64,000 bases of DNA, from contig NC_057718.1 in assembly GCF_004010195.1 (NCBI RefSeq), positions 51,169,941 through 51,233,940 of the forward strand, read 5' to 3'. The translations under genes were made by a program, and so were the position numbers. The DNA comes from Chiloscyllium plagiosum. Taxonomy: Eukaryota. The notes under the pieces are model-generated. The model searched no databases, was not told the origin of the DNA, and saw nothing but the letters and a program-made list of their open reading frames with translations. Below are positions 3,270-55,532 of this stretch, one piece after another (the stretch's first letter is position 1; the number at the start of each line of letters is the position of its first letter).

Positions 3270-4490
3270 AGGATTCCCCAGGAGTCTCAACCGGGTCTAA
3301 CCCATCTCCTGCACTTTTCCCTCAACACCTCTTTTCTAACCTGCAACAATGATAGGGTTCCCCTTGTTGTTACCTACCACCCCACCAGCATCCACATCCA
3401 GAAGATCATCAGCAGCCATTTCCACCACCTCCAGTGAGATGCCACCACCAGACACATACTCCCCTCCCCTCTCTTGTCCGTCTTGCACAGGGACTGTTCC
3501 CTTTGGGACACATTGGTCCACTCTTCCTTCACTCCCAACACACCCTCACATCTTCCCCTGTAATCACCAAAGGTGTAACACCTGCCCATTTACCTCCTCA
3601 GTATCCAAAGACCCAAACATACCTTCCAGGTGAAGTAGCACTTTACCTGCATGACACACAATCTAATCTACTGCATTCGCCACTCACAATATGGTCTCCC
3701 CTACATTAGGGAAATGAATCATAGACTGGGTGACCAATTTGCAGAACAGCTATGTTCTGCCCACAAAAAAGACCCTGAGCTTCCAATTGCCTGCTACTTT
3801 AACATGCTTTAGCATTTCTGATAAAGAACTTATGCTCGAAACTTAATTCTCCTGCTCCTCGGATGCTGCCTGACCAGCTGAGCATTTCCAGCATCGCACT
3901 CTTCAACTCCGATCTCTAGCATCAACAGTGCTTACTTTCTTCCACTTTAACACACCACCCTGTTCCCTGGCCAACATCTCTGTCTCAGGCTTGCTGCAGT
4001 ATTCCAGTGAACCTCAGCTCAAGCTGGAAGAGCAACCCCTCATTTTCCACTTGGGGACCCTGCAGCCCTCCGGACTCAACATCGAGTTCAATAATTTTAG
4101 GACCTGAACTCCCTCATGTCGCAGCCCCTTACCACACACACCAGGCTTGTTATCACATAGTTTGCCATTACACACTACCTATTGTCAGCCAATAACAGTC
4201 TCCATTAACAGCTATTCACCCTTCCAGTCACATCATTATCGACTCCTTTGTCTGTCCAATTGTCCTTCTCTCTCTCTGCGTTCCATCCCTGCTTACTCCT
4301 TATCCTCTCCCCCACCCTATGTTCTGCACATAAACCGACATTTTCCTAACTATCATTAATTTCGGAGGAAGGATCACTGGATCCAAAGTGTTAATTTTGA
4401 TTTCTCTTCACAGATGCTGCTAGATCTGCTGAGCTTTTCCAGCAATCTGGTTTTTTTTTCGTTTCTGATTTACAGCATCCACAGTTCTTT
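3270..4490 (+). mobile_element. Degenerate Neptune-like PLE 3' fragment (Zn-knuckle, GIY-YIG, pseudo-LTR)
   Basis: CNHQRCNTC and a frameshifted IYCIR..YGLPYI motif resemble the 32.6-35.3 kb element. Decayed HHR at about 4357-4397 (stem GGATC-ACTG-GATCC). Confidence 0.85.
3805..3943 (+). mobile_element. 139-bp solo HHR/pseudo-LTR insertion nested in the older PLE
   Basis: TSD ACTTTAACA (3796-3804, 3944-3952). CTGATAA..GAAAC followed by the same tail as 43627-43714. Confidence 0.75.
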
Positions 4491-16908: not shown

Positions 16909-17090
16909 AAAACAGAGCATGTTGGTGAAACTCAGCAAGTCTGGCAACATCTGGGGGAAGAAAACAGAGTTAAAATTCCAAGTTTCATTCTGACTCGAAA
17001 CATTAACACTGCTTTCTTCCCACAGACACTGCCAGATCTATTGAGTTTCACCAGCAATTTCTGTTTTTATTTCAGATCTCCAGCATTTTC
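16909..17090. repeat. Palindromic pseudo-LTR element with the central HHR cores deleted
   Basis: Arms 16909-16983 and 16993-17068 are imperfect reverse complements. Only CTCGAAACATT remains of the ribozyme. Confidence 0.75.
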
Positions 17091-17299
17091 AGCTCTTCAT
17101 TGTATTGTTCTAAAGTAAATAAGTCAAGGTACTTGAATCTATCTGAAGTGTTTACAGTATATCCTTTGAATTAGGAACCAGTTTTCCTCTGGACATTTTC
17201 TGCTACCACTGTATTTCATACCACATGGGCCACCGAAGTTGGTAACAGAACTTCAGGTTTTACCTATCTCTGTCCTGCATTGTGTTAAAATGGTGACAT

Positions 17300-32601: not shown

Positions 32602-35298
32602 GATTCTGGATTAGAGGTGTTGGAAAAGCACAGCAGTTCAGGCAGCATCCGAGGAACAGTAAAATCGACATTTCAGGCAAAAGCCCTTCATTGATGCCCT
32701 GGGGTTGAAGTGTTCCGAGCCGGAAGATGAGGCGTTCTTCCTCCAGGCATCAGGTGGTGAGGGAGTAGTGGTGAAGGAGGTCCAGGATCTCCATGTCCTT
32801 GGCAGAATGGGAGGGGGAGTTGAAATGTTGGGCCACAGGGCAGTGAGGCTGAGTGGTGTGGGTGTTCCGGAGGTGTTCCCTAAAGCACTCTGCTAGGAGG
32901 CGTCCAGTCTCCCCAATGTAGAGGAGACCGTATTGGGAGCAACGGATACAATAAATGATATTGGTGGATGTGCAGGTAAAACTTTGATGGATGTGGAAGG
33001 CTCCTTTAGGGCCTTGGATGGAGGTGAGGGAGGAGGTGTGGGCGCAGGTTTTGCAATTCCTGCGGTGGCAGAGGAAGGTGCCAGGACGGGAGGGTGGGTT
33101 GTAGGGGAGCGTGGACCTAACCAGGTAGTCACTGAGGGAATGGTTTTTGTGGAAGGCAGAAAGGGGTCGGGAGGGAAATATATCCCTGGTGGTGGGGTCC
33201 GTTTGGAAGTGGCGGAAATGTCGGCAGATGATTTGGTTTATGCGAAGGTTGGTAGGGTGGAAGGTGAGCACCAAGGGCATTCTGTCCTTGTTACGGTTGG
33301 AGGGGTGGTGTCTGAGCGCGAAGGTGCGGGATGTGGACGAGATGCATTGGAGGGTATCTTTAACCACGTGGGAAGGGAAATTGTGCTCTCCAGTGAAGGA
33401 GGCCATCTGGTGTTCTGTGGTGGAACTGGTCTTCCTGGGAGCAGATATGGTGGAGGCGGAGGAATTGGGAATACGGGATGGCATTTTTGCAGGAGGTAGG
33501 GTGGGAAGAGGTGTAATCCAGGTAACTGTGGGAGTCAGTGGGTTTGTAAAAAATGTAGGTGTCAAGTCGGTCGTCATTAATGGAGATGGAGAGGTCCAGG
33601 AAGGGGACGGAGGTGTCAGAGATGGTCCAGGTAAATTTAAAGTTAGGGTGGAATGTGTTGGTGAAGGTGATGAATTGCTCAACCTCTTTGCGGGAGCATG
33701 AGGTGGCCCCAATGCAGTCATCAATGTAGCGGAGGAAGAGGTGGGGTGTGGTGCCGGTGTAATTACGGAAGATGGACTGTTCTACACAGCCAACAAAGAG
33801 ACAGGCATAGCTGGGGCCCATACGTGTGCCCATGGCGACCCCTTCCATGGAGGAAGTGGGAGGATTCGAAGGAGAAATAGTTAACGGTGAGGACCAGTTC
33901 GGCCAAACGAATGAGAGTGTCGGTGGAAGGGTACTGTTGGGGACATCGGGAGAGGAAGAAACGGAGGGCTTGGAGGCCCTGGTCATGGCGGATGGAGGTG
34001 TAGAGGGACTGGATATATCCATGGGGAAGATGAAGCATTGGGGGCCGGGGAAACGGAAGTCTTAGAGGAGGTGCAGGGCGTGGGTGGTGTCTCGAACGTA
34101 TGTGGGGAGTTCCTGGACTAGGGAGGGTAGGACAGTGTCGAGGTAGGTGGAAATGATTTCAGTGGGGCAGGAGCATGCTGAGACAATCGGTCGGCCAGGG
34201 TGGTCAGGCTTGTGGATCTTGGGAAGGAGGTAGAACCCGGCAGTGCGGACTTCCTGGACTATGAGGTTAGACGCTGTGGTTGGGAGATCTCCTGAGGTGA
34301 TGAGGTTCTGTATGGTCTGGGAGATGATGGTTTGGTGATGGGGTGGAGTCATGGTCGAGGGGGTGCTAGGAAAAGGTGTCCTCAAGTTGGCGTCTGGCTT
34401 CAGCGGTGTAGAGATCAGTGCGCCAGACTACCACTGCACCCCCTTTATCTGCTGGCTTGATTATGAGGTCAGGATTGGAGCAGAGGGATTGGAGGGCTGC
34501 GCGTTATGAGGGTGAGAGGTTGGAGTGGGGGAGGGGGTAGACAGGTTGAGGCGGTTAATGTCCCGGCGGCAGTTAGAAATGAAGAGGTCGAGGGCAGGTA
34601 ATAGGCCAGCATGGGAGTCCAAGTGGCTGCAGTGTGTTGGAGGTGGGCGAAGGGGTCCTCAGAAGGTGGGCAGGAGTCCTGATTGTGAAAGTAAGTTCGG
34701 AGGCGGAGGCGGCAGAAGAATTGTTCGACGTCACGGCGTGTATTAAATTCATTGATGCGAGGTTGGAGGGGGATGAAGGTGAGTCCTTTGCTGAGGACTG
34801 ATCGTTCGTCCTCAGTGAGTGGGAGGTCTGGAGGGATGGTGAAAACTCGGCAGGGCTGGGAGCTGGGATCTGGTGTGGGTGTGGAGTTGGGAGTGGGGGC
34901 GGAGCCGGTAACTGGAGTGGGTGTGGTGGTGGAGGGAATGGGGGTGGAGTCAAGAGCAGGGGTGGTTTCCCCCCAGGGTTCTGGGGGGCAGGGATGGTGA
35001 CACTGGGATCTGTGGGGGGTGGGGGCGTGACAGCAGAATGCAGGTGGGGGCGAAAGGGGTGGCAAACACAGTAGTGGGTGGTGCGGAGGTCACTGAGCGT
35101 GTGACATCAGCGATGATGTGAGGGGAGGAAGTGATGTCACTTGTGGTGCAGGAGGGATTAGAGGTGCTGGAAAAACACAGCAGTTCAGGCAGCATCCAAG
35201 GAGCAGTAAAATCAACATTTCGGGCAAAAGCCCTTCATCAGGAATACAGGCAAAGTGCCTGAAGGGTGGGGAGATAAGTGAGAGGAGGGTGGGGGTGG
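32602..35298 (-). mobile_element. Neptune-like Penelope element (RT + Zn-knuckle + GIY-YIG) with direct pseudo-LTRs; pseudogenised
   Basis: 12-bp TSD GTCTGCAGAGAG (32590-32601, 35299-35310). RT motifs LPKIHKP..RPIVS, GVAMGTRMGPSYA, RYIDD; CHRRNCKTC; IIYCIRC..LYIGETGR..FREH. Direct repeats at about 32608-32690 and 35155-35238. Confidence 0.95.
35209..35246 (-). ncRNA. Minimal type I hammerhead ribozyme motif in the 5' pseudo-LTR
   Basis: ATTC-CTGATGA-A-GGGC-TTTT-GCCC-GAAA-TGTT-GATT. Confidence 0.75.
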
Positions 35299-37789: not shown

Positions 37790-38300
37790 CTGATGGTAGC
37801 TAGGAAAATGTTGGCTCAAATGCAGATGATAGAGTGGGGGGATGGGATAATGAGTAAACGACAGATGGGGAAAGAGCCCAAAGAGAAAGAAGATTGGAAA
37901 GACAAAGGAGTGGATAACAAGTTGATTGGGAGGGACAACAGCTGTTAGTGACTATCAATAGGTAGTGTGTAATGGCAGACTACATGATAACAAGGCCTGG
38001 TTTGTGTTGCAGGGGAGTCAGACAGACGAGAGTTCAAGATCTAAATGATTGAACTCAATATTGAGTCCGGAGGACTAAGGGTCCCCAGTAGAAAATGAGG
38101 TGTTGTTCTTCCAGCTTGCACTGAGCTTTGCTGGAGCACTGCAGCAAGCCTGAGACAGTGATGTTGCCCAGGCAAAAGAGTGGTGTGTTAAAGTGGCAGG
38201 CACCTGGAAGCTCAGGGTCTGTTCTATGGGTAGAATATAGATGTTCTGTGAAGCAGTCTCCCAGTTGATGTTTCATTTCCCCAATGTAGAGGAGACCACC
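37790..38300 (-). mobile_element. Neptune-like PLE GIY-YIG/3' fragment
   Basis: LLYIGEMKHQLGDCFTEH..ACHFN..LEEQHLIF, homologous to about 3700-4300. Confidence 0.85.
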
Positions 38301-40842
38301 TTTTCTTTGTTTACTTGTCAGATGACAAATGAACTACAGCATATAGAAGGCAGCTTACAATCACTTTCTCAAGGGCAATTACACATGGGAAACAAATGCT
38401 GACCCACTTAGAGATGTTCATATCCCATAACTGAATTAAAAAAAATCGCGTTTTGCTTTCTGCCTCCACGACCCTTTATCATTTAATCTTCTCCCGTTCT
38501 TGAGCCCCTGACTTTTCTAGTTCCAAGTCATTGACCAGAAATATATAACACGTGTTTTCCCCAATTGACCCAACTCAACTAAGAATTCAGGGGATAGAGA
38601 AAGCCCACTGTGGGTGAGACTGAACACTTCCATCTATTTTGGGGCTTAAAATATACGTAAGGAGAGACTTTTGCCCTTTTTGGAACAAAAAGCCCTGATT
38701 AAGGCACCACTAATCACAAGCAAGCAGTTCTGCATAATTTATGACAGAGACATGTGACACTGGGTTGAGTATTGGGGATGGGACCCTCATCATGTGCCAA
38801 GTGGCAGGGCCTGCAGGGGGTTGGGAGTTTCGCAAAATGTGACAGTAGGTAACCTGGAAGAATGTAAAATCTTGGAATTGGGAGTGGTCTTCTGGGAGTA
38901 TGGGAAGAGGCCCTGGCGCTGCTCCCTTCTTTGGCATAAATATGTTGGGGACAGTAGCAAGCAGGTTGGCAGTGGGAGGTTGTCTGCTGGATTTAACAAG
39001 CTGCCTAACCTTCACACCTGTTGGAAGGACAGCATAAGATATAGCCCATGTACATTGTTTCTCTTCCTACTGATGCTGCCTGACCTTGCTAAGGATTTGC
39101 AGCATTCTTAAAATTTTTAAAATTAGAATTGCAGCATCTGCAGTCTTTTGGGTTTGAATTGACAACAGATGTGGAGCAAAACTGTCCCATGAGAAGAGTG
39201 ACTTCAATAACAGAGATAATCAAACGGAGGTTTAGCTGGAAAGCTATCCATTTTTTAGAAGAAAAAATGTATTGTATATGGACCATCAACATACATGTCA
39301 AGGTCTAATTTACCTAAAAGTATAATTTGGTTTGGCTGTTCAACTTCTCCAACAACCTCCTTAAAAGACAATGATTTCTCTTTAAGAACTCATCCTATAA
39401 TTCAACTGCAAGGCTGATTTTACATTTCAACTCTTTAGAGAAACTCCTAAAGATTCAATCGGCAACGCATTAGTTCAGGAATGGCAAGGGGAAAAGCCTG
39501 GTATTCTGGAGAAGACATTTGTTTATAGACGGAGAATAGTTTCTGTAGAGAAGGACATAAGCCCTGATTCTAAATAAGCCTGGTTGAACAGAAATCACAC
39601 TGCGATTTAATTACTGTACACATCCTGAAACTGCAGATTGAGTACAGGCAGGGGAATAGTGGTATGATTTCCAAATAAAGGATCTTATCTTGCTTTGCAC
39701 GAAGACATAGATACAATTAAAGTCTATTTTGGCAATAAAAATAAATCAAATGTCAGCACAATGATTTCAAAATGTCAACTGTAAATGATCAGACAAGACC
39801 CACAAAAATAAATTGCAACTTCTCCAAATCCAATATACAAGTGGTACTATTTATCACGATGTGCATGGTAAAATCTAATAATCAAAACAGTTCCAAAAAA
39901 ACATAAAGAGATACATTACAATAAAGTTATAATAACACCCCATGAACAATAACAGCATCCAAGTTCTGTGGACTCCATTTAATTTACATTCCCAAGTCAG
40001 ATCCATAAAGATTTTTTGAAGGTTAGATTTTACATTTTCAGTTTTGGGAACAGAGCCTTTCTTGTGCAGATTCTTAGTGGGGACAAATGTACTTCCTGTT
40101 TCTGGAGAAAGCATTTTCAATTGCTGTGGTATCTAATAATCCCCTGAGACATTGAGGTAAATCAAGGGCACACCAGCGTCTTTAGTGTTTTCAGTGCTAT
40201 CTGACTCAGCATTTGTGGATGCTGGAGAAGTCAAAGATGCAGCCAAGTCCATACTTATGAAGTATGCTTATCCCATCAAGGAAAATAACATGCTGATTGC
40301 ACCATTACTATTGGATATCAAAAAAACTGGTGCAAAAAGTCTGGAACACAGGATTTCACAATACACAATATGTTTGCTATACTCAGTATGGTCTCCTCTA
40401 AACTATGGAGAGTAAAGGTAGCTCAGGTAATAGTTTTCAAAAACACCTCTGCTTGGACCGGAAGCTTAGCTTTGAATTTCTGGTATCCTGGTATCTCTGC
40501 CTTACTCTCACAATGACATTACTGTCCTTTGTCTCCTGTAAAGCACAAAGCAAGTTTGAAAAACAGCACTTGTTTGGGCATTTTACAGTCTTCTGAACTT
40601 GGAGTTCAACAATTTTAAAAATGTTTTAAATTTTTAAAATCATAAACAATTTTATATTTCAATTTTTCTCTAATTTTTGTTTTTTGAGAGTAGAAAACCA
40701 GCTTTTAGCACATCTTTTGTTTCTTTGTATTTTTTTTAATGTCCTGGCCCCATTCTATTTGTCTTTTTAAGATGATCTCTCCATTATCAATCAGAAATTT
40801 TTGTCATTGTTATTATGTCATTGTCTCACCCACTGTTATTCC

Positions 40843-43626: not shown

Positions 43627-43714
43627 TGAAAATGCGTTGCTGGAAAAGCGCAGCAGGTCAGGCAGCATCCAAGGAACAGGAGAATCGACGTTTCGGGCAT
43701 AAGCCCTTCTTCAG
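43627..43714 (-). mobile_element. 88-bp solo HHR/pseudo-LTR insertion nested in the CR1
   Basis: GAGG duplicated at 43623-43626 and 43715-43718. Homologous to 35165-35241. Confidence 0.85.
43682..43714 (-). ncRNA. Minimal type I hammerhead ribozyme motif (intact core)
   Basis: CTGAAGA-A-GGGC-TTAT-GCCC-GAAA-CGTC-GATTC. Confidence 0.8.
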
Positions 43715-46399
43715 GAGGGGTTTGGTTAAGAAAAAGAAGGAAGCATATGTCAGGCATAAACAGGATAGATCGTGTGAACCCTTAGAAGAGTATAAAGGCA
43801 GTAGGAGTATACTTCAGAGAGAAGTCAGGAGGGCAAAAAGGGGACATGAGATAGCTTTGGCAAATAGAGTTAAGGAGAATCCAAAGGGCTTTTACAAATA
43901 CGTCAAGGATAAAAGGGTAACTAGGGAGAGAATAGGACCCCTCAAAGATCACCAAGGCGGCCTTTGTGTGGAGCCACAGGAGATGGGGGAGATACTAAAC
44001 AAGTATTTTGCATCAGTCTTACTGTGAAAAAGGACATGGAAGACATAGAATGTAGGGAATTGGATGGTGACATCTTGAAAAATGTCCATATTACAGAGGA
44101 GGAAGTGCTGGACGTCTTGAAATGCATAAAAGTAGATAAATATCCAGGACCTGATCAGGTGTACCCAAGAACTCCGTGGGAAGCTAGGGAAGTGATTGCT
44201 GGGCCTCTTACTTAAATATTTGTATCATCAATAGTCACAGGTGAGGTGCCGGAAGACTGGAGGATGGCTAATGTTGTGTCACTGTTTAAGAAAGGTGGTA
44301 AGGAGAAGCCAGGGAACTATAGACCAGTGAGCCTGATGTCAGTGGTGGGCAAGTTGTTGGAGGGAATCCTAATGGATAGGATATACAAGTATTTGGAAAG
44401 GCAAGGACTGATTAGGGATTGTCAATATGTCTTTGTGCATGGGAAATCATGTCTCACAAACTTGATTGAGTTTTTTGAAAAAGCAACAAAGAGGACTGAT
44501 GAGGGCAGAGCAGTAGATGCGATCTATATGGACTTCAGTAAGGCATGGTTCCGTGGGAGACTGGTTAGCAAGGTTAGATCTCATGGAAAGAGAACTGGCT
44601 CAAAAGTAGAAGACAGAGGATGGTGGAAGAAGGTTGTTTTTCAGACTGGAGGCCTGTGACCAGTGGAGTGCGATGAGATCGGTGCTGGGTCCATTATGTT
44701 TCATCATTCATATAATTGATTTGGATGTGGACCTAGGAGGTATAGTTAATAAGTTTGCAAATGACACCAAAATTGGAGTTGTAATGGACTGTGAAGAAGG
44801 TTACCTCAGATTACAACGGGATCTTGATCAGATGGGTCAATAGGCTGAGAAGTGGCAGATGGAGTTTAATTTCATAAATACGAGGTGCTACGTTTTGGAA
44901 AAGCAAATCAAGACAGGACTTATGAATGGTAAGGTCCGAGGGAGTGTTGCTGAACAAAGAGACCTTGGAGTGAAGGTTCATAGCTCCTTGAAAGTGGAGT
45001 CCAAGGTAGATAGGTTGGTGAAGAAGGTGTTTGCTATGCTTTCCTTTATTGGTCAGAGTATTGAGTACAGGAGTTGGGAGGTCATGTTGCGGCTGTACAG
45101 GACATTGGTTAGGCCACTGTTGGAATAATTCTGGTCTCTTTTTCCTATTGGAAAAATGTTGTGAAACTTGAAAGGGTTCAGAAAAAAATTACAAGGATGT
45201 TGCCAGGGTTGGAAGATTTGAGCTATAGAGACAGGTTGAATAGGCCATGGCTGTTTTTCCTGGAGCGTCGGAGGCTGAGGGGAGACCTTATAGAGGTTTA
45301 TAAAATCATGAGGGGCATGGATAGGATAAATAGACAAAGTCTTTTCCCTGAAGTGGGGGAGTCCAGAATTTGAGGGCATAGGTTTAGGGTGAGAGGGAAA
45401 AGATATAAAAGAGACTTAAGGGGCAACATTTTCATGTAGAGGGTGGTGCATGTATGGAATGAACTGCCAGAGGACGTAGTGGAGGCTGGTACAATTGCAA
45501 CATTTAAAAAGCATCTGCTTGGGTATATGAATAGGAAGGATTTGGAGGGATATGGGCCGGATTGGGATATCTGGTCGGCATGGACAAGTTGGACCGAAGG
45601 GTCTGTTTCTGTCCTGTACATCTCTATGACTATGACTATCAGTCCTCCTAACTGAGGAAACTTTCACTGCATTTCCTCTGTAAAAAGAACATCCTTCCTC
45701 AGACAAGGATATTAAAACTGCACACAATATTCTAGTTGTGGTCTCACCAAGGCCCCATATAATTGCAGCGAGACATCCCTAATCCTGTACTCAAATACAC
45801 TCACTATGAAGGCCAATAAATCAGTTGCCTTCTTTATCACCTACTGCACCTGCATGCTTACCTTCAGTGACTGATGTATAAGGATGCCCAGGTCTCATTG
45901 CACATTCTCCTCTCTCAATGTATGGCTATTCAGATGATAATCTGCCTTCCTGGTTTTGCTACCACATTGGATAACCTCACATTCAATCACATTACACTGC
46001 ATCTGCTGTACATTTGCTATTTATTCAGCTTGTCCAAATCACACTGAAGCATCTCTACATATTCCTTATAACTCAACCTCCCACCCAGATTTGTATCATC
46101 TATGAATTTGGAGATATTACACTTAATTCCCTCGTCTAAATCATCAATATAAATTGTGAATAGCTGGGGTCCTAACCTTGTGGTACCCTACTAGTCACTG
46201 CCAGCCATTCAGAAAAATACCCGTTTATTCCTACTCTTTGGTCTACTAACCAATTTGGGATTGGGAGTGGTATATTGAGATGGGTAGCAAATTGGCTGGT
46301 CATCTCAATATTACCACTCCCAATCCCATACACTTTAGTCTTACACACTTATCTCTTATGTGAGACTTTGTCAAAAGTTTTCTGTATAAATATTTAGTG

Positions 46400-47630
46400 C
46401 AAATGTGATCAAGCAGAGTTAACATGGCTATATGAAAAGGAAAATTATCTTGTTCAAGTTTTAATGGGGGATAACTAAAAGTAAATCAGTGTATTTAGAT
46501 TTTCAAAAAGCAACCAAAACAATGTCCCACAAGACATTTATTACATAAAATGTTAGTTCGTGGAATTGGGGTTACTATATCAGCATGAATTAAGAATTGA
46601 TTAGTGGATGAGAAATAGAGGAGGAATAAATAAAGCATTTTCTAGTTAGAAGACTGTAAAGAGAGGGGTACTGAAAAGGTAAGTACCAAGTCTTGGTTAT
46701 TTCCTATCTGTATGAAGGACTTAGATGAGGGACTGAGTGTAATGGATGCAAGTTTGCTGCTGATACAAAGTTAGGAGGGAAACTAAAGGTGAGGATATAA
46801 AGAGGTTGCCAATGGATATAGATAGGGTTGAAGAGGTGTTAAAATATAACACATGGAATACAATGTGACAAAACATAGAGAAATCCACTTTGTTAGGAAA
46901 AATGAAAAAAAATAGTTTTGTCATGCTGAAAGACTAGAAAGTTTGCATTCAGAGGAACTTGGTTATCCTTAGTCCGGAATCACAAAAAAACCAAGATACT
47001 GCAAATGAATAGGACATTAAATTCTGTGATAGATTTTGTTACAAAGCATTTTCAGTCCAAGAGTAGAGTTGTCTTAGTACAATTATTGAGGACATTGGTG
47101 ACGTCACACCTGGAGTACTGTGCATAATTTTAAGACATACTTAAGTAAGATGGAGAGAAACAAATATTTGTTAGTTGTTAATTTGCATAAGGGAATTGTT
47201 TCAGGAGAAGAGATTTATGTCGAGCAGGCTTACATTCCCTTGGGTTTAGAAGAGTGAGAAGTGATCTAAATGAAGATTAATACTGTTTGAGAGAATTGAC
47301 AGAGTTATGGTGAGAAAATGATTTCCCTGGCTGGGGAATCAAGAACATGGGTAATCAGTGGTAACCATTTAGAGCTAAGATTAAGAAATTTCTCTGTGTT
47401 GAGTTGTAATTTTCTAAAAGTTCACGACCCAGAGAACTGAGGATGCTTGGGTTGCTGAATATATTCAAGATGGAGTTCAGTGAACTTTTGGGTATTCAGT
47501 GAATTAAGGAAAATAGTTATAGTGTCGGAGCTATAGTTGAGATAAAAGATCAAGCATGATATTTTTGTATTGTGGAGTAGGCTCAAACGATCAAAGTAGC
47601 CTCCTAAACTCTGATCTCTTATGTCCATAC
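46400..47630 (+). mobile_element. Highly decayed CR1/L2 RT and 3' fragment
   Basis: GTGTATTTAGATTTTCAAAAAGC, AAGTTTGCTGCTGATACAAAG and CACCTGGAGTACTGTG remnants. Confidence 0.75.
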
Positions 47631-50051
47631 TGCTTTAAGATTTTCTCAGAATTTGTTATAGCATGGTCTCTCTGGAATTAAACAATGAAACAATGCATAC
47701 TTCTTTCGAGATGCAGGTGCAGAGAATCACCATAACTTTATGGGAGGTATGAGAGGCAGTTGTATTCAATTGCTCTTATTATCAAATTCAAATATCTCTT
47801 TCTTTTCCATTTACTTTTATGAAGTCGTGTATTTGTACAATTAAGGTGCAAAATACCTTATTGAAACATGCACTGATCAAATTCCTTTTAACAATGTTTT
47901 TTTTTATTTGCAAAATACATAGCTGTATATTTTGCTGTATTTATGCCTTGAATTTTCTAATTTCTGAAAGTTTTGACAATTGACCTAAGATAGTGCCAAC
48001 AAAAATAATGGGGATTGCCTTTGTTCAAGATCATCAACTCAGTTTCTCTCTGTGACAATAAAAAACAGTAAATTTTTTTTCAAATCATGAATGCTGAGGC
48101 AGCTTTAGAATAAAAAAAACACAAAAGCTCAGCTGTCTTAGCTCAATAGTATTTAATTCACAAAAGAACAAACCTTTAAATTTCCAACAAGAAAGTTCAG
48201 CAATCACAACAATCAAGATTTTCTCATGCTGACTTCTTTTTGTCCCACTCTTACTACATTATTGTCATTTACCCTGTGGAATCTAAGTGTATTCTAAATT
48301 TCCTGCTCCTCATTTGTAATTTAATCAGGAATGCGACTGTTCATGCACAACAGAGGTTTTAAATTTCAGAGACATGCTCTCAAAGGATGGAATATGAAGC
48401 TTCAATGTCATTCACTGCATGTTCGATTGCACAGCAACCTGCAGTTGCTATTTCAGCCTTGTCGACTTAACATGGAGAGCATTCTATGTGGTCATAAAGA
48501 CTTCTAAAAAATACAACTTTATACAAAGGTAACTCAATGGCAAAAAAGTGAAAGTGCAATATATTCAACATGGCTTATCATTCAGAGCCTGAAGAGCTCT
48601 TAGTAGAGCAAAACTAGAACAGAAAAAAAGTGATTCAAATGCATATTGATAATTTCTGGGATAAATGGAGACTTTGCATTTTGCTTTCCTTGATCTATGA
48701 CCGAAAGTAACGTTGAAAACTTTTGTTTAAACCGAAGGTTCAGTCGTCCAGTTACAGCAATCTTTGGTAAAGCAGATTTCAGCACTTTAATCCTAAAATT
48801 TGAAATTTATGGGTGGGATTTAAGATTCCAAATCATTGGATTTGAAGGTGGGTGTGCAGGGACGGTGGTTAATCAGCCTGTGGTCTTCCCAGCTGCTCTA
48901 TCCATGCTGTAAAGTGCTCAGGATGGCGACAGGTAGGGTTCCCACCACTCAGCCAATTAATGCCTGTATCGTGACCTATTAATGCTAATTCAAAACCTCA
49001 TCCCATTATGCTACTGAGATCTAACCACAGCTGTCCCACATAAGTTTCTGCTGGAAGGCAGAGTTGGTGTGGGTGAGGGAAGGAGAGGTTCCTCTTTATC
49101 CTGCGCCCTGAGGTATATCAAATTGTCATTCCGAAGGTTTTTACTCCCCAATTCATTCTTTCCTCATTGTCATTTAAATCCTGGCACCCAATCCTCTTTG
49201 CCACACTTGGCCAGAGCCTGCCAGCTTGGCACCCAGTGAGATGCCAATCAGATTTCAATGACCCAATGTATACTCTGTTTGCTGGACAGCTTCCAGCGTT
49301 TGAGTGGCTGGCAGCTCTCTGAGGCAGGACTTCCAATGCACGAGAGGAAGAAATTCCTTCTGCTATCTAATAACAGCCAGTGAACACTAAATGGCTTTCA
49401 GACACAATGTTCCTCTAAGTGGCCTCCCCCAAGCCCACAAACATTTTAGCCAAGATGTTGAGGAGGAGGTGCACATACAGGAATTTATGCAATTCACAGA
49501 TATGTTTCAAAACAAAATTAGACTTAAAAAGACAGTTGTAAAATTGGCCAAGTAATCATTGATTGATTGAAAATTAATGACTGAAACCGTATGTAGAGAA
49601 AAAATCCTTGGTGAGCTATTTGTAAAATGTTTTTCCAAATAATGAACTTATTACTCACCATTATCAAATAACAGAAGATCATAGTTTGCAATCCACTAAT
49701 TGCATCTCATTTAATTGATCAAAATTACAAGTTTGAAAATTATAAAAATACTTCTTCACATAAATCAGAAACTTAATGGACTCTAAGACAGCAATCTTTG
49801 AAGTAATAATGACATGAAAATGTGCAGATGATATAATTAAACAACTGCATGTCTTGTGAAGAGTGTATGTGCAATTTGAATAATAGTAACAGCAAAATAA
49901 ACAAACTGTGGAACTATCTGTTGATGTTGGCATTGATTAAGGAATGAGGAGCAACTCCCACATCCCATAAACAAATTTTTAAAAACAGTGTTGGATAGCC
50001 CACCAGGATAATTACCACTGCATCTTTAAAATGAATTAATAGATGAATATT

Positions 50052-50266
50052 ACTGCAGATGCTGGAATCTGTACTGAAAACAAAATATGCTGGAAATCAC
50101 AGTGGGCCAGGCAGTATCTGTGGAGAGTCAGCAAGCTGATGTTTTGAGCCCAGATGACTCTTCATCAGAGCTCTGATGAACAGTCATCTGAACTCAAAAT
50201 GTCAGCTTGGTTTCTCTCCATGGATGCTCTCTGACCTGCTGTGATTTCTCCCATGTTTTGTTTTCA
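50052..50266. mobile_element. Palindromic element of two back-to-back HHR/pseudo-LTR units
   Basis: Axis at 50170/50171 (TTCATCAGAG|CTCTGATGAA), arms about 96 bp, one CTGATGA core on each strand. Confidence 0.85.
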
Positions 50267-52039
50267 AGTCTTGCTTTAAAGTTTTGGTTAAAGTACGGTA
50301 GGGTGGAGGTGCTAATTTTGATGCATTGGAAATCGTTCCCCAAAGAGCAACCAAAATAATATTGGCTCAGTTACATTTCAGGTTTCTGATATATTTTACA
50401 AAAATCACAACCACAAATGGAAAATCTTTCACGAATGAGAGCGATCAAGCAATGCAATGGAACTTAAACATTGTTTTTCTTTCCACTAAAAAGTAATCTC
50501 AACGTATTTGGGACCGATAGTCTGGTGGCATTCTAGTAAAACAGTTGAAACTTGTTTTATCCCCAAAAATAAGTATCTTAGTGAGAGTGTCCAGTATTTC
50601 ACCTCAGAGTAATCTGATTCAAAATTATTGAAAATGATCACCAAGAATGTTAAGTCTACAAGGCTGAAATAGTAGCTGCAGACTACTGTGCAATCAAAAA
50701 TCCAATCAATGACATTAAAAGTTCATGTTCCTTCCTTTGAGAATGAGAGTTTGAAATATAATACCTACATTGTCCATGCCATAGATTTTGTGTACAGTAG
50801 TCTATGTATTAAAAATTTAAATACTCCTTAATATGAAAAACTTGTATTATGTATCTATTAATACCTGTGTACCAAAAAAAAAAGCACAATTCAAAAACCT
50901 TTTCTCACCAGTGCAGTGGAAACTTACAATCTCAACCTTTAGGCATGGCCCCTTTCATGTGTGGCCTATATTGGGAAATTCAATCCTCAACCAGGGTAAC
51001 AAAGTATGGAGGAAAAGAAAGGGTGTGAGTTTAGGCAAAACTCACTTACATGTGTTAAATTTTCTAATCTTTTGCACTGGTTTATGTTCACAATACTGGC
51101 GTAAATGAGCATAAACATTCCAAACATTGCAGTAGTCTTTCAGTATTTCACCGAAGTGTACTTTGAAATCTAAGTGTTCAATTTAATAGTGGGAGTTTGA
51201 CTGACAACATCTGACTCAGCAACAAAAGCACTGCCAACTGAGACATACTAACACAAGAGGCCTCTTTCTGACCTGAAATTTTCATGAAAAAAAGTTCTGA
51301 AATGTTTTAAGCTGTATCATTTGAACTTTTGAGAAGCTTTCCTCACTTTGCTTTGCTAAACAAATAATAGATTGTTTTAGGTTTAGTCTAAATGTATCAT
51401 GGATCTTTACAGTCTAAGGGGTGGTTGGTCTGAGGAAGCTTCACTCAGCAAACTGATGGGACACCAGAACTCTGCCACATTCCACCAAAACCAAGTTCTT
51501 GGTGGGAGGGGCCAAGCTCACCCACCCAACACTGTCACAAGATGAGATGCAAAGCAATGAATGAATGACCACTAAGGGTTTATTTCCATTTGGGCTGCAA
51601 TTATTTCAGATCCAAGCAGAATGATTAAGACCTAGCCTCAGTTGCTGGTAAATGTGCACAGGCTGGGGATGGAGATCCCTTGATCTACTTTCATCTATGG
51701 ATGACTGAGATTTCAAAGTCTGAACACGGATGAAGGGGATGGCCATTAAGAGCCCTCCCCCTCCTCTTGCTTCCAACCTACATAACATTGCTGTCCCCAG
51801 GATGTCACCCTTCCCTAATGGTACACATCTGTTTCAGGGTTGTTTTAATATCATGGGACTCCTAGTGATGTCAACCTTCATCTCCTCCCTAGCCATGCTG
51901 AAAGCTAGAGCTACCAGCTGGCCTCTAAAGGGCATCAAGGATCAAAACTGGAGTCAATGGGATTTAGCCAGAGAATGCCTCAATGGCTGGAGTCAAGCCT
52001 AGCAGATGAAAAACGGTTATCGTTTTTGGAAATTGACTA

Positions 52040-52775
52040 ACTCAGCTCCAGGGCATCCTTGCAGGAGTTCCTCACATTAGTGGCCTGGCCCATCTATCTT
52101 CAGCTGTTTCATCAATTACCTTCCCTCCATCAGAAGTGGGACGTGTCTATTGTGCAATCATCAATGCTCAGCACCATTCATGACTCATCAGACACTGAAG
52201 TAATCTGTATCCATATGTGGGAAGAATGAGCAACATTCAAGTTTGGACTGAGAAGTGGCAAGTAACATTTACCCCCATTCATGACAAAGACAATCTCCAA
52301 TAAGATCAAAATAAAAAATCTCTGCTTGACATACAATGACACTACCAACATTGAATAGCCCATCACCAACATTTTGAGGGTTGCATTAACCAGAAACAGA
52401 ATCAGAGCAGCCATATAAATACCAGGGCTACAAGAGAAAGTCAAAGGTTAAGAATCCTGGGACAAGTAACTCACCTCCTGTCTTCTCAAAGCCTATCAAC
52501 CATCTACAAGGACAGCAGATCCATGGGAACACCACTACTTGCAAGTTCTACTTCAAGCCACATACCATTCTGATCTTGAATTACTTCTCCATTTCTTCAC
52601 TGTTTCCCTGGATCAAAATCCTTAACTCCTCCCTTTTAACAACATTGCAGATGTACCTACAATACATGGACTGCAACGGTTCAAACAGGCAACTCACCAC
52701 CACCTTCTCAAGGCCAGTTAAGAATAAGCAATGAATGCTGACCTAGCTAGTGATACCCACCTCCACAAATTAATT
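52040..52775 (+). mobile_element. Old L2-type LINE 3' end
   Basis: GCAGGAGTTCCTCAC..ATCTTCAGCTGTTTCATCAAT RT remnant and CACCACCTTCTCAAGG..AATGCTG tail. Confidence 0.7.
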
Positions 52776-53334
52776 CAAACAGAATAACTGCATTGGTCAG
52801 CTCCCGAATCTGTCGTAATAAGCTCCTGGACTTCAGGAAGTTCTTTGGAACAAACTTGTCTGCTACCTTTTCCTTAAGGCATTTATTCAGTGAAGAAACT
52901 CAGTAGAAATGGCTGGAAACAATTTCTAAAATAAAACATTAAATGAATATAATTTAAATCTACTTCAAGCTACTTAGTTATTCTGAGTCCGAGATACTGC
53001 AAATGGAGCTGAATATAATTCTCTAGATTTTTAAAAATTGATTGCTACAAGTAACCTGTTGGCTTTGATTAATTAAAAGTTAAACAATTATCTTTTACTT
53101 TTAGAACACTGTATTTCATTTTAATAATTATCTCCATCTCAAACTTGCTGTACTGCAATTCATAATTGATACATACCTCTTCTTCCTGCCAAAGTAATGC
53201 TGTTACTGAAACTTTGCTTGGAAACAAAGTTGTGCTAATTTTTAAATTGCAGTACATCTATAAATGAATGACATTTTCTTTGATTAGCTAAATAAATAAC
53301 ATTCTTTAAAATAATTTATCACACTGACTGCAAG

Positions 53335-53990
53335 AAGACCATATAACATAGGCTGAATAACTTACTTCAGTTCCTATCAATTCTGCCCTGCTATTCAATG
53401 AAATCATGGTTTATATGACAACGCACAATTCCAATTTCATGCTTTTTTCCCCATAATTCCTTACTGATTAGAATCTGTCTAACTCAGTCTTAAATTTACT
53501 TAATGACCAAGCCTCTAAAGCCCTCTGCAGTAAAGAATTCCACACATTCACTATCCTCAGAGAAGAAATTCCACATCATCATCCTTCAAACTCTGATGAA
53601 GAGTCATCCTGATTCCAAACGGTAGCTTGCTCTCTCTCTACGGATGCTGCCAGATTCGCTGTGGTTTATAGCATTTTTTGTTTTCAGGACAGATTGTGCA
53701 GTAATTTGCTCCTCCTCATATTCTCATAAACGAGTGACTCCTTATTCTAACATTATTACCATTGTAGACTCTCCCTCAAGGGAAAAGTAAACCTTTCACC
53801 ATCTACTGTGTCAAGTACCCTAATAAACTGATATGTTTCAATAAGGTTGCCTCTCATTCTTTGAAATGAGGACACACTGAACCTATTCAACCTCTTCTCA
53901 TAAGACAGTCCCTCCGTTCCCAGGATCAGCCCAGTGAACCTTGTCTGGACTGCCAATTCTCTCATAATAGTGCTCCTTGTTTAAAAATGG
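53335..53990 (-). mobile_element. CR1/L2 3' fragment containing a solo HHR insertion
   Basis: ORF VQTRFTGLI..GLSYEKRLNR..RMRGNLIETY. Confidence 0.75.
53583..53710 (+). mobile_element. Solo HHR/pseudo-LTR unit of the same subfamily as the 50.1-kb palindrome
   Basis: CTCTGATGAAGAGTCATCCTGATTCCAAACGGTAGCTTGC matches the palindrome arms. Confidence 0.75.
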
Positions 53991-55532
53991 ATTGAAGACA
54001 AGAGAGGCAGGGAAGCTTTCCCCTGGCTTTCTGTCATTCTCCTGGAGGTGATGTTGGAAATGGTCAGGGCAAGAAGAAAGTGCTACTTCCAATGGATGGC
54101 AAGCAGAGGTCAGACTTTTAAACCAAATAGGTGTAGCTAGAGATTGCTGAGCTGGAGAGAGCAGGAGTGCAGCTGGATTCAGGCTGCTACATATTAATGT
54201 CTAAATGAGGGAAACAAAGGTGAGTGACATCCTGCTTTCCATTCGAATTCCCTCACTGACTTCACCAGCATTCTCCCACACAGTAGCTCCACTTATTCCT
54301 CTCTTGCTAAGTACCTCCTCAGATGCCCATGTCAATGGTCAACAACCAGATTCACCCTCAATTCACAACGTCGTGGAGTTGTTATGGCACTGAAGAAGGC
54401 CATTTGGCCTATCAAGTCCATGCTAGCTCTCAACATAGTAATCTTCACCCTGCTTTATTTTTAGGCCTTGCACATTTATTTGCCTCAAGAGCTCATCTAG
54501 TTTCCTTCTGAAATAAATGAACACCTCCACTTTCATCACGGTTCATAGGCAGCAGGTTGAATGTCATTATGACTTGTTGCATAGAAATGTTTGTCCTCAC
54601 ACCCAACTGCATCTGTGCATTAAATTGGTGTCCCCGATCCTTATACAAACAGGTAATGGAAACAATTGTTTCTGTCCACCCACCTAAACCCACTGTTATC
54701 TTAGGTAAATTTATCAAATCTCTAATCTTCTTTGCAACAAAGAGAACAACCTCAGGTTCTCTGATCTTACTTTGTACTTACATTTCATAATTCCTCAAAT
54801 CATGCTCCTCTTTTTCCTCTGAAAAACCAGATCTTGGAGGATACTGCAGTTGTGATTGTCAGGTTGTGAGACAGACATAACAAAGGAACAGCAGTTGGCC
54901 ATGTCAGCCCCTGGATGGAATCTGGGTGGAATCAGAATTAACCTGGGAATATTACACCTAAAATGTCAGCAACACTATGAAAGTTGTAATACAGACCTTG
55001 GGTAATTAACTTGTCTAGTTATCCACTTCCTATTCCACATAAGTGCTGGAAAGGCAGTGGTTTCAGAAAGTTAGAGGCAGGCTGTTCGGCCTCCTGTCCT
55101 GACACATGAAATGTTCGAGCTGACACCCTCTGGGTTCTGAAGCCCAAAGTGCCCCCAGACAAGGCTTCATCCTGCAAGGGTAGACTTGGTTATTGCAACA
55201 TGAGGCAGCATAATAGCAGTGTCTGGAAGTCGGAGAGACAAAGAAATAAAAAGTGGCAGCGTCTTGAGAAGAATCCCCACTTCCATGTGCCCTTTCACCA
55301 TTTTCATTCACTTGCTTGCTTGCCAAGAGCTGGAGTGACTGGGTGCATATCATTGAGGCACTGAACGCAAGATGGGTGGGGTGGCACAGGATATTCTAAC
55401 ACCTGCAAGTCCCCCTCCAAGCTACTTAACATCCTGACTTAGAAATATATTGCCATTCCTTCACTAGTGCTGGGTCAAAATCTTGGAATTCCCTCCCAAC
55501 TGACACCGTAAGTCTACCTATGGCACATAGAC

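What the first reader, a model, noticed from the sequence alone, without database searches (positions are those of the whole stretch)
50052..50266. Palindromic double hammerhead: one ribozyme on each strand sharing a central stem I arm
Seen: a spacerless inverted repeat with about 96-bp arms around GAG|CTC. Plus strand: GAGCT-CTGATGA-ACAGTCATCTGAACTC-AAAA-TGTC-AGCTT. Minus strand: GAGCT-CTGATGA-AGAGTCATCTGGGCTC-AAAA-CATC-AGCTT. The self-complementary AGCT at the axis supplies the 5' arm of stem I for both ribozymes. A single-arm relative lies at 53583. Inference: an ancestral element with a ribozyme in both polarities, reminiscent of ambisense viroid-like RNAs but probably formed by fold-back priming during PLE integration. 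Either transcript could fold as a long hairpin (small-RNA precursor) or as the HHR. This copy is probably inactive because GAAA has become AAAA.
Basis: partly seen in the sequence, partly recalled or inferred. Interest (0 to 1): 0.75.

Follow-up and report, generated by a model that had tools for sequence, protein, structure and literature searches.

The report
Head-to-head Penelope stub, two dead hammerheads
This mirror-image stretch is a real but decayed short insertion of a Penelope-type jumping gene, whose layout is already described; both ribozyme motifs have lost a core base, and sister copies suggest each such palindrome was likely built on the spot from two separately made DNA copies of the element's RNA leader joined head to head.

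Summary
In detail: a spacerless inverted repeat centred on AG|CT (50170/50171), with a minimal hammerhead motif on each strand. The element also carries a one-sided ~32-nt tail (to about 50042). It is one copy of an old, abundant Penelope-like retrotransposon family; longer sister copies carry RT and GIY-YIG motifs, and many have 12-17-bp target duplications. The family core is GAAACGTT; GAAA>AAAA is CpG decay, and both motifs here are broken. It is not an ancestral two-polarity ribozyme element. The exact axis occurs in only 3 of 100 tail-anchored copies, within a continuum of junctions. It occurs in four subfamily haplotypes, mirrored in both arms, so it arose repeatedly. Simple fold-back also fits poorly: in 27 of 41 inverted copies the second arm reaches further upstream than the first (8 the reverse). 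Best reading: priming from both nicked target strands at two RT start sites, run-off near the RNA 5' end, then annealing through AGCT. The predicted hairpin buries either ribozyme (about 53 kcal/mol). The layout is published. This scan noted the same thing before on other DNA (62 notes in at least 10 genomes). Interest is low to moderate.

The parts
50042..50073 (-). One-sided PLE 'tail' (+98..+129 from the axis), outer ~7 nt decayed; inferred first RT start site at its outer end
   Evidence: tail end sharp in 100 copies
50074..50170 (-). Arm 1: pLTR copy (+1..+97), sense on the minus strand
   Evidence: 89.5% to family consensus including tail
50171..50266 (+). Arm 2: inverted pLTR copy (+1..+96), no tail; its end matches the family's second end point (+95..+103 in 26 of 41 inverted copies)
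50169..50172 (.). Self-complementary AGCT at the axis; parent positions -2..+2, the inferred annealing site of the two cDNA ends
50133..50173 (-). Minimal type I hammerhead motif, broken: G12>A (50145), CG>CA in the ACGU palindrome; stem II still pairs
   Evidence: sequence
50168..50208 (+). Minimal type I hammerhead motif, broken: G12>A (50196), CG>TG in the ACGU palindrome, stem II closing pair lost
   Evidence: sequence
53570..53712 (+). Separate single-arm insertion of the same family (-17..+129, with tail, 7-nt deletion in the tail); core also broken

Best explanation
This is a decayed, roughly 225-base head-to-head insertion of an endonuclease-bearing Penelope-like retrotransposon, likely made by priming from both cut target strands, so the 'double hammerhead' is a by-product of two copies of the same leader meeting at AGCT. 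Steps: (1, shown) the parent is a PLE with RT and C-terminal GIY-YIG motifs whose pLTR begins with a minimal hammerhead. (2, inferred from 12-17-bp duplications, and from PAc in vitro) the enzyme nicks both target strands. (3, inferred) one end primes cDNA at the tail end (+129 to +133), the other just before the tail (about +97). (4, inferred) each cDNA runs a variable distance, often stopping near position -2, the likely RNA 5' end downstream of a CATAAA-like box. (5, inferred) the two 3' ends are joined by microhomology; when both stop at -2 they end in AGCT and give the exact spacerless palindrome. (6, shown) CpG decay later broke both cores. (7, predicted) any transcript through it would fold as a ~96-bp hairpin, not as a ribozyme.
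For: Parent: tail arms run on into shared internal DNA that translates to GIY-YIG (Atlas best hits 0.96-0.97 to clusters with PF01541 on 22% and 55% of members) and RT motifs (read by eye). Duplications: score >=8 in 16 of 38 axis-class copies v 1.3% of mismatched pairs, and 24 of 41 other inverted copies v 1.0%. Two end points: tail end sharp; arm 2 ends at +95..+103 in 26 of 41. Continuum: 42 of 100 tail-anchored copies have an adjacent inverted arm with varied junctions; exact axis in 3 of 100; exact 20-mers 21 (axis) v 491 (parental junction), reversed controls 0. Repeated origin: variants at +60, +76, +87 agree between arms (28 of 33, 29 of 34, 19 of 22; p 2e-4, 5e-5, 1e-3) and the same haplotypes occur in long copies. 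Separate synthesis: arm 2 reaches further upstream in 27 of 41, arm 1 in 8, equal in 6 (p 0.002). Stop peak: 20 of 51 arm-1 copies that reach +4 end in -7..+4 (0.041 per nt v 0.0064 over +5..+97); 17 of 41 arm-2 starts lie in -4..+10. No peak at the cleavage site (2 of 76 in +29..+34). PMC11167929: PAc cleaves and extends both strands, starts RT at two sites that bracket the tail, and uses uncleaved RNA.
Against: Copies are old (each arm about 10% from consensus), so ends are blurred and the stop peak is broad, with a raised rate also over -43..-8 (0.019 per nt). Deletions at the centre of palindromes after insertion could produce some of the asymmetric junctions. Site +20 shows no arm-to-arm agreement (p 0.66). 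The RNA 5' end is inferred, not observed. In L092 and L109 arm 2 ends at -2 rather than +97, which the model does not explain. This copy has no clear target duplication. Pfam, PDB and the protein-database search did not recognise the decayed parent fragments.
Confidence: 0.62

Rival explanations
1. Fold-back or self-priming: one cDNA folds back at a short palindrome (AGCT, or the CTTCA/TGAAG repeat) and copies itself, stopping before the tail; asymmetric junctions arise later by deletion. This is close to the self-priming proposal of PMC3846280 and to the first reader's view.
For: It explains mirrored variants equally well, the 6 of 41 symmetric junctions including AGCT and one GATC axis (L136), and the 8 of 41 in which arm 1 is longer.
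Against: Arm 1 carries the tail, so it must be the template, yet arm 2 holds sequence absent from arm 1 in 27 of 41, by up to hundreds of bases (L106, L121, L128, L096). Random central deletion should not favour one side 27:8. AGCT cannot form a hairpin with no loop.
Confidence: 0.2
2. The spacerless palindrome is a self-propagating non-autonomous element (MITE-like) copied as a unit from one or a few palindromic masters, as in the reader's 'ancestral two-ribozyme element'.
For: At least 40 loci match nearly the whole unit, and the exact axis is far commoner than any single junction would be by chance (3 of 100).
Against: No asymmetric diagnostic site other than CpG decay. Four haplotypes are mirrored in both arms and shared with long copies. 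The unit lacks the upstream CATAAA-like box. Its RNA is predicted to be a -201 kcal/mol hairpin. It is a minority within a continuum.
Confidence: 0.12
3. The locus is a retained, functional RNA element: a bidirectional ribozyme switch or a small-RNA hairpin precursor.
For: The decayed copy still folds as a long hairpin on both strands.
Against: Both cores lack G12. Only 1 of 76 arms and 0 of 38 copies keep an intact core on both arms. The arms here differ by 21.6%, about the sum of two neutral divergences. Minimal hammerheads need two same-polarity copies (PMC4209133), and each strand holds one.
Confidence: 0.04

Closest known systems
EN+ Penelope-like insertions with inverted pLTR, one-sided 30-40-bp tail and TSD (Adineta vaga Pen2a/Pen3, PMC3846280 passages; general scheme PMC8557442 Fig. 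2 legend)
   Same: Head-to-head inverted pLTR, short overlap or palindrome at the inverted junction, ~32-nt tail on one side, short target duplications, 5' truncation.
   Different: Reduced to two leaders with no ORF; overlap of 4 nt falling in hammerhead stem I; duplications 12-17 bp rather than 8-10. That paper proposes self-priming on an antisense template, whereas the junction census here favours two separate cDNAs.
Minimal hammerhead ribozymes of metazoan PLE pLTRs (PMC4209133, results and discussion read)
   Same: Type I, no helix III, palindromic ACGU at 15.2-16.2, unpaired base between 9 and 10.1, G10.1-C11.1 pair, short helix I. The paper also notes dual motifs on opposite strands about 100-700 bp apart.
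   Different: Here the spacing is zero and stem I 5' arms overlap; helix II is 5 bp; both motifs are broken.
PAc (Poseidon from Anolis carolinensis) in vitro (PMC11167929, main text read)
   Same: Two RT start sites bracketing the tail, both target strands cut and extended, uncleaved RNA as template, AC-rich tail end.
   Different: That work does not address how inverted junctions form. In PAc the ORF starts within the hammerhead; here the likely start codon lies about 45 nt past the tail (read by eye).
LINE-1 twin priming (recalled, no paper read)
   Same: Two target-primed cDNAs joined by microhomology to give an inversion.
   Different: Uses fixed internal start sites rather than poly(A) and target homology, and both cDNAs copy the same leader, giving a true palindrome.
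Ambisense viroid-like circular RNAs with a hammerhead in each polarity
   Same: A hammerhead motif readable on each strand.
   Different: Here the motifs are mirror copies of one sequence in chromosomal DNA, dimer-type, broken, and predicted to be masked by the hairpin; nothing points to RNA-to-RNA replication.

Membership tests
EN+ Penelope-like element | ORF with PLE-type RT in linked longer copies | tested here: met
   RT motifs in L178, L182, L175, L176, L180, contiguous with the family internal sequence; recognised by eye; Pfam and PDB gave no hit
EN+ Penelope-like element | C-terminal GIY-YIG endonuclease | tested here: met
   Atlas 0.96-0.97 to clusters carrying PF01541; Pfam scan itself negative
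EN+ Penelope-like element | pLTR, direct or inverted, containing a hammerhead motif | tested here: met
EN+ Penelope-like element | 30-40-bp tail on one end | tested here: met
   129 v 97 nt arms
EN+ Penelope-like element | Target site duplication | tested here: met
   Family: 16 of 38 and 24 of 41 above threshold v about 1% null. This copy: inconclusive.
Neptune clade of PLEs | Cys-rich linker between RT and EN, plus RT phylogeny | tested here: inconclusive
   A Cys-x-Cys-x-x-Cys linker precedes the EN, in line with the Neptune/Nematis description in PMC8557442; no tree was built
Minimal hammerhead ribozyme (PLE type) | Core CUGANGA and GAAA, palindromic ACGU, G10.1-C11.1, bulge after position 9 | tested here: met
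   Met for the family ancestor: the dinucleotide before AAA is CG 26, CA 60, TG 29 of 132 arms, the CpG-decay pattern
Minimal hammerhead ribozyme (PLE type) | Intact core in this copy | tested here: not met
   G12>A on both strands, ACGU broken on both
Minimal hammerhead ribozyme (PLE type) | Self-cleavage | not testable with these tools
   needs an in vitro assay
Ambisense viroid-like RNA | Two distinct active ribozymes, one per polarity, in a replicating circular RNA | tested here: not met
   mirror copies of one pLTR in genomic insertions with target duplications; 0 of 38 copies intact on both arms
Self-propagating palindromic non-autonomous element | Fixed unit copied from a master, with its own diagnostic variants | tested here: not met
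   mirrored haplotypes shared with long copies, continuum of junctions; a genome-wide tree was not built

The most novel reading that the evidence does not exclude
Penelope-like elements make their inverted pLTRs by twin priming: the enzyme copies the element RNA from both nicked target strands at the two tail-bracketing start sites, and spacerless 'double hammerhead' palindromes mark the case where both cDNAs run off the RNA 5' end at a self-complementary AGCT. The junction census then maps the transcription start and the integration pathway from genome sequence alone.
Probability: 0.55. Interest if true: 0.55.

Novelty: new member of a known kind. Interest (0 to 1): 0.28.

Why it matters
The locus itself is an ordinary dead transposon stub. 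Its value is as one of many fossils of an integration step that PMC8557442 lists as unresolved (formation of tandem/inverted structures) and that PMC11167929 leaves to steps not yet validated. The census gives specific predictions for the existing in vitro PLE system. It also warns that hammerheads found on both strands of animal DNA can be mirror-image integration products, not viroid-like elements.

Tried and rejected
Rfam scan of the window at E<=1: no hammerhead, two weak miRNA matches elsewhere. PF01541 search of the genome: one weak hit, not followed. Pfam on three stop-free parent fragments: 0 families. Longer-protein homologue search: none of 592 candidates passed. PDB sequence search: nothing meaningful. 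A second fixed axis at GATC (-117): 0 exact 20-mer hits although one copy has it (L136), so not a comparable hotspot. Junctions set by ribozyme cleavage at +33/+34: no peak. An extra cap-derived C after run-off at -2: one possible case (L115) among 27 copies listed, inconclusive. A spliced frame starting at the ATG inside the hammerhead core: meets a stop soon after the tail (by eye), rejected as the main ORF. Expression: no RNA holder listed; of two single-cell poly(A) runs sampled at about 2% and 6%, 16 and 0 reads were laid on 47500-54500, all 16 fitting only in part, i.e. from other family copies; this is no test. No small-RNA raw reads were available. Literature: seven searches listed no paper whose title or abstract start describes shark spacerless PLE palindromes or PLE twin priming; the single paper listed was not read; subscription journals, Repbase/Dfam and supplements were not seen, so absence from print is not established.

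Full report
Observation. The window holds a spacerless inverted repeat, arms 50075-50170 and 50171-50266, 79% complementary. Either strand folds as one long hairpin (-131.7 and -113.1 kcal/mol, z -14.3 and -11.7). Rfam does not detect the motifs. Positions below are counted from the axis, +1 being the first base of an arm.

Family. A search of the 3.56-Gb host genome gave 2722 candidates, of which 40 were scored, and all 40 matched most of the unit. I aligned 29 distinct loci from the top 30 (L018 duplicates L010). The unit is 226 nt: a 129-nt left arm and a 97-nt right arm, symmetric apart from CpG sites, with 32 extra bases on the left. These loci were chosen for likeness to the window copy; by eye about 17 of 29 have the exact axis and the rest have small deletions or nearby junctions. 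The host is likely a shark; that rests on recall and on earlier scan notes and was not tested.

Parent. A search with one arm only showed that the tail arm usually runs on past AGCT into shared internal DNA. That DNA translates to a GIY-YIG endonuclease preceded by a Cys-rich linker, and further upstream to RT motifs (recognised by eye). The Atlas placed the endonuclease piece at 0.96-0.97 with clusters carrying PF01541 on 22% and 55% of members. Pfam, PDB and the protein-database search found nothing for these decayed fragments. Three of 100 tail copies continue beyond the tail into shared sequence, which gave 38 matches and a likely ORF start about 45 nt past the tail. The hammerhead and tail are therefore the leader (pLTR) of an endonuclease-bearing Penelope-like element.

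Target duplications. Direct repeats of 12-17 bp flank many copies: score >=8 in 16 of 38 axis-class copies (the 29 plus 9 of the 21 exact-axis hits) against 1.3% of mismatched pairs, and 24 of 41 other inverted copies against 1.0%. The window copy has none that convinces.

Ribozyme status. Across both arms of 80 copies the dinucleotide ending in G12 is CG 26, CA 60, TG 29 of 132 arms scored; the one inside ACGU is CG 15, CA 57, TG 51 of 136. This is CpG decay from GAAACGTT. The motif has the features of the minimal PLE hammerheads of PMC4209133 (parts 1-2 of 4 read). That paper reports no cleavage by a single motif, low activity for dimers, and dual motifs on opposite strands 100-700 bp apart. 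Here 1 of 76 arms keeps an intact core and 0 of 38 copies keep two. In the ancestral-type palindrome, forcing the hammerhead fold costs 52.9 kcal/mol, against about 3 in a single arm. Each strand holds only one sense motif, so it cannot form the dimer by itself.

Is the axis ancestral? An exact 27-mer from the tail has 609 hits; the exact axis 20-mer has 21 and the parental junction 20-mer 491; reversed controls were 0. Allowing for decay, that suggests several thousand family copies and a few hundred at most with the exact axis (rough inference). I fetched the first 100 tail hits, which are blind to the junction. Of these, 42 have an adjacent inverted arm detected by BLAST, with widely varied junctions and spacers up to about a kilobase of parent sequence. 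The exact axis appears in 3 of 100 (L072, L147, and L087, whose second arm BLAST missed). Variants at +60, +76 and +87 agree between the two arms of a copy (28 of 33, 29 of 34, 19 of 22), both in the axis class and in other inverted copies; +20 does not (p 0.66). The four main haplotypes of the axis class also occur among the 21 copies that extend past -30. A permutation test on the 29 gave 65 shared variants against 41 +/- 5, maximum 60 in 1000. The axis is thus a hotspot reached repeatedly, not one inherited two-ribozyme element.

How it forms. Arm 1 starts sharply at the tail end, and arm 2 ends at +95..+103 in 26 of 41. These match the two RT start sites that bracket the tail in PAc, which also cleaves and extends both target strands and uses uncleaved RNA (PMC11167929, parts 1-2 of 4 read). 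If arm 2 were a fold-back copy of arm 1 it could not contain sequence that arm 1 lacks. It reaches further upstream in 27 of 41, against 8 the reverse and 6 equal (p 0.002; L126 dropped as doubtful, three junctions re-read by eye, three long ones taken from BLAST coordinates or by eye). Arm ends pile up at the hammerhead's 5' edge: 20 of 51 arm-1 copies that reach +4 stop in -7..+4, and 17 of 41 arm-2 starts lie in -4..+10. In the separate ORF-start set, 3 of 12 downstream leaders are joined at -3. There is no peak at the cleavage site. A CATAAA-like box lies at -33 in the parent, about 30 nt upstream of -2; reading it as a promoter is inference. Two cDNAs that run off at -2 both end in AGCT and can anneal into exactly this palindrome.

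Against this reading. The copies are about 10% diverged, the stop peak is broad, later deletions at palindrome centres may account for part of the asymmetry, two copies end arm 2 at -2, and the RNA start is not observed. The RNA data were no test.

Comparison. The layout is published: inverted pLTR with overlap or palindrome at the junction, one-sided tail and duplication (PMC3846280, passages; PMC8557442, passages). PMC3846280 explains the palindromes by self-priming on an antisense template. PMC6155905 (passages) added only background. My searches listed no paper on twin priming in PLEs, with the limits stated under Tried and rejected; supplements were not seen. I recorded the twin-priming idea, before one search showed that 62 earlier notes of this scan, in at least 10 genomes, hold the same search words; the eight shown describe such palindromes and most reach the same reading. 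Those notes are not independent evidence.

Verdict. The feature is real and is a new member of a known kind. It works like, and is a member of, EN+ Penelope-like insertions; it is not an ambisense ribozyme element. Interest 0.28; the mechanistic reading would merit about 0.55 if confirmed.

Noticed in passing
window 48342-48473 and 50647-50778: A 132-nt inverted pair, 78% complementary, 2173 nt apart, enclosing the palindrome; no other copy in the window or in the fetched loci. Possibly old transposon ends or two copies of another repeat.
   Followed up: partly
window 3350-4091, 32907-33277, 38049-38302: Decayed PLE ORF fragments at 66-74% to the family's parent consensus, probably from related families.
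   Followed up: no
window about 16930-17100, 35160-35245, 43630-43720, 60-150: Leaders of other hammerhead-bearing PLE families; the one ending at 43714 (minus strand) keeps an intact-looking core with GAAACGTC. The weak Rfam mir-3202 match at 16946-17030 overlaps the first.
   Followed up: partly
family consensus +31..+97 (window 50201-50267 on +): Looks like a 67-nt intron: GT just before the cleavage site, a CTGAC branch-like motif and a pyrimidine tract ending in CAG at +97, the same point where arm 2 ends. Splicing would remove half of the ribozyme. Not tested on RNA.
   Followed up: partly
L185-L202: Direct-tandem mini-units: leader, tail and about 100-200 nt of ORF start joined to a second leader starting between -126 and -3, suggesting template jumps from the RNA 5' end.
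   Followed up: partly
L092, L109: The inverted arm ends at -2 instead of about +97; L092 has a 14-bp duplication right after it. Unexplained; -1 also resembles a splice acceptor.
   Followed up: no
L136, L063, L092, L096, L109, L128: A second cluster of arm ends near -106..-135; L136 is a symmetric palindrome centred on GATC at -117.
   Followed up: partly
L009, L020, L026: The same 4-nt loss just right of the axis in three copies: a recurrent junction or a small subfamily.
   Followed up: no
window 46255-46330: Short perfect-looking hairpin with a weak MIR1507 match, E 0.99.
   Followed up: no
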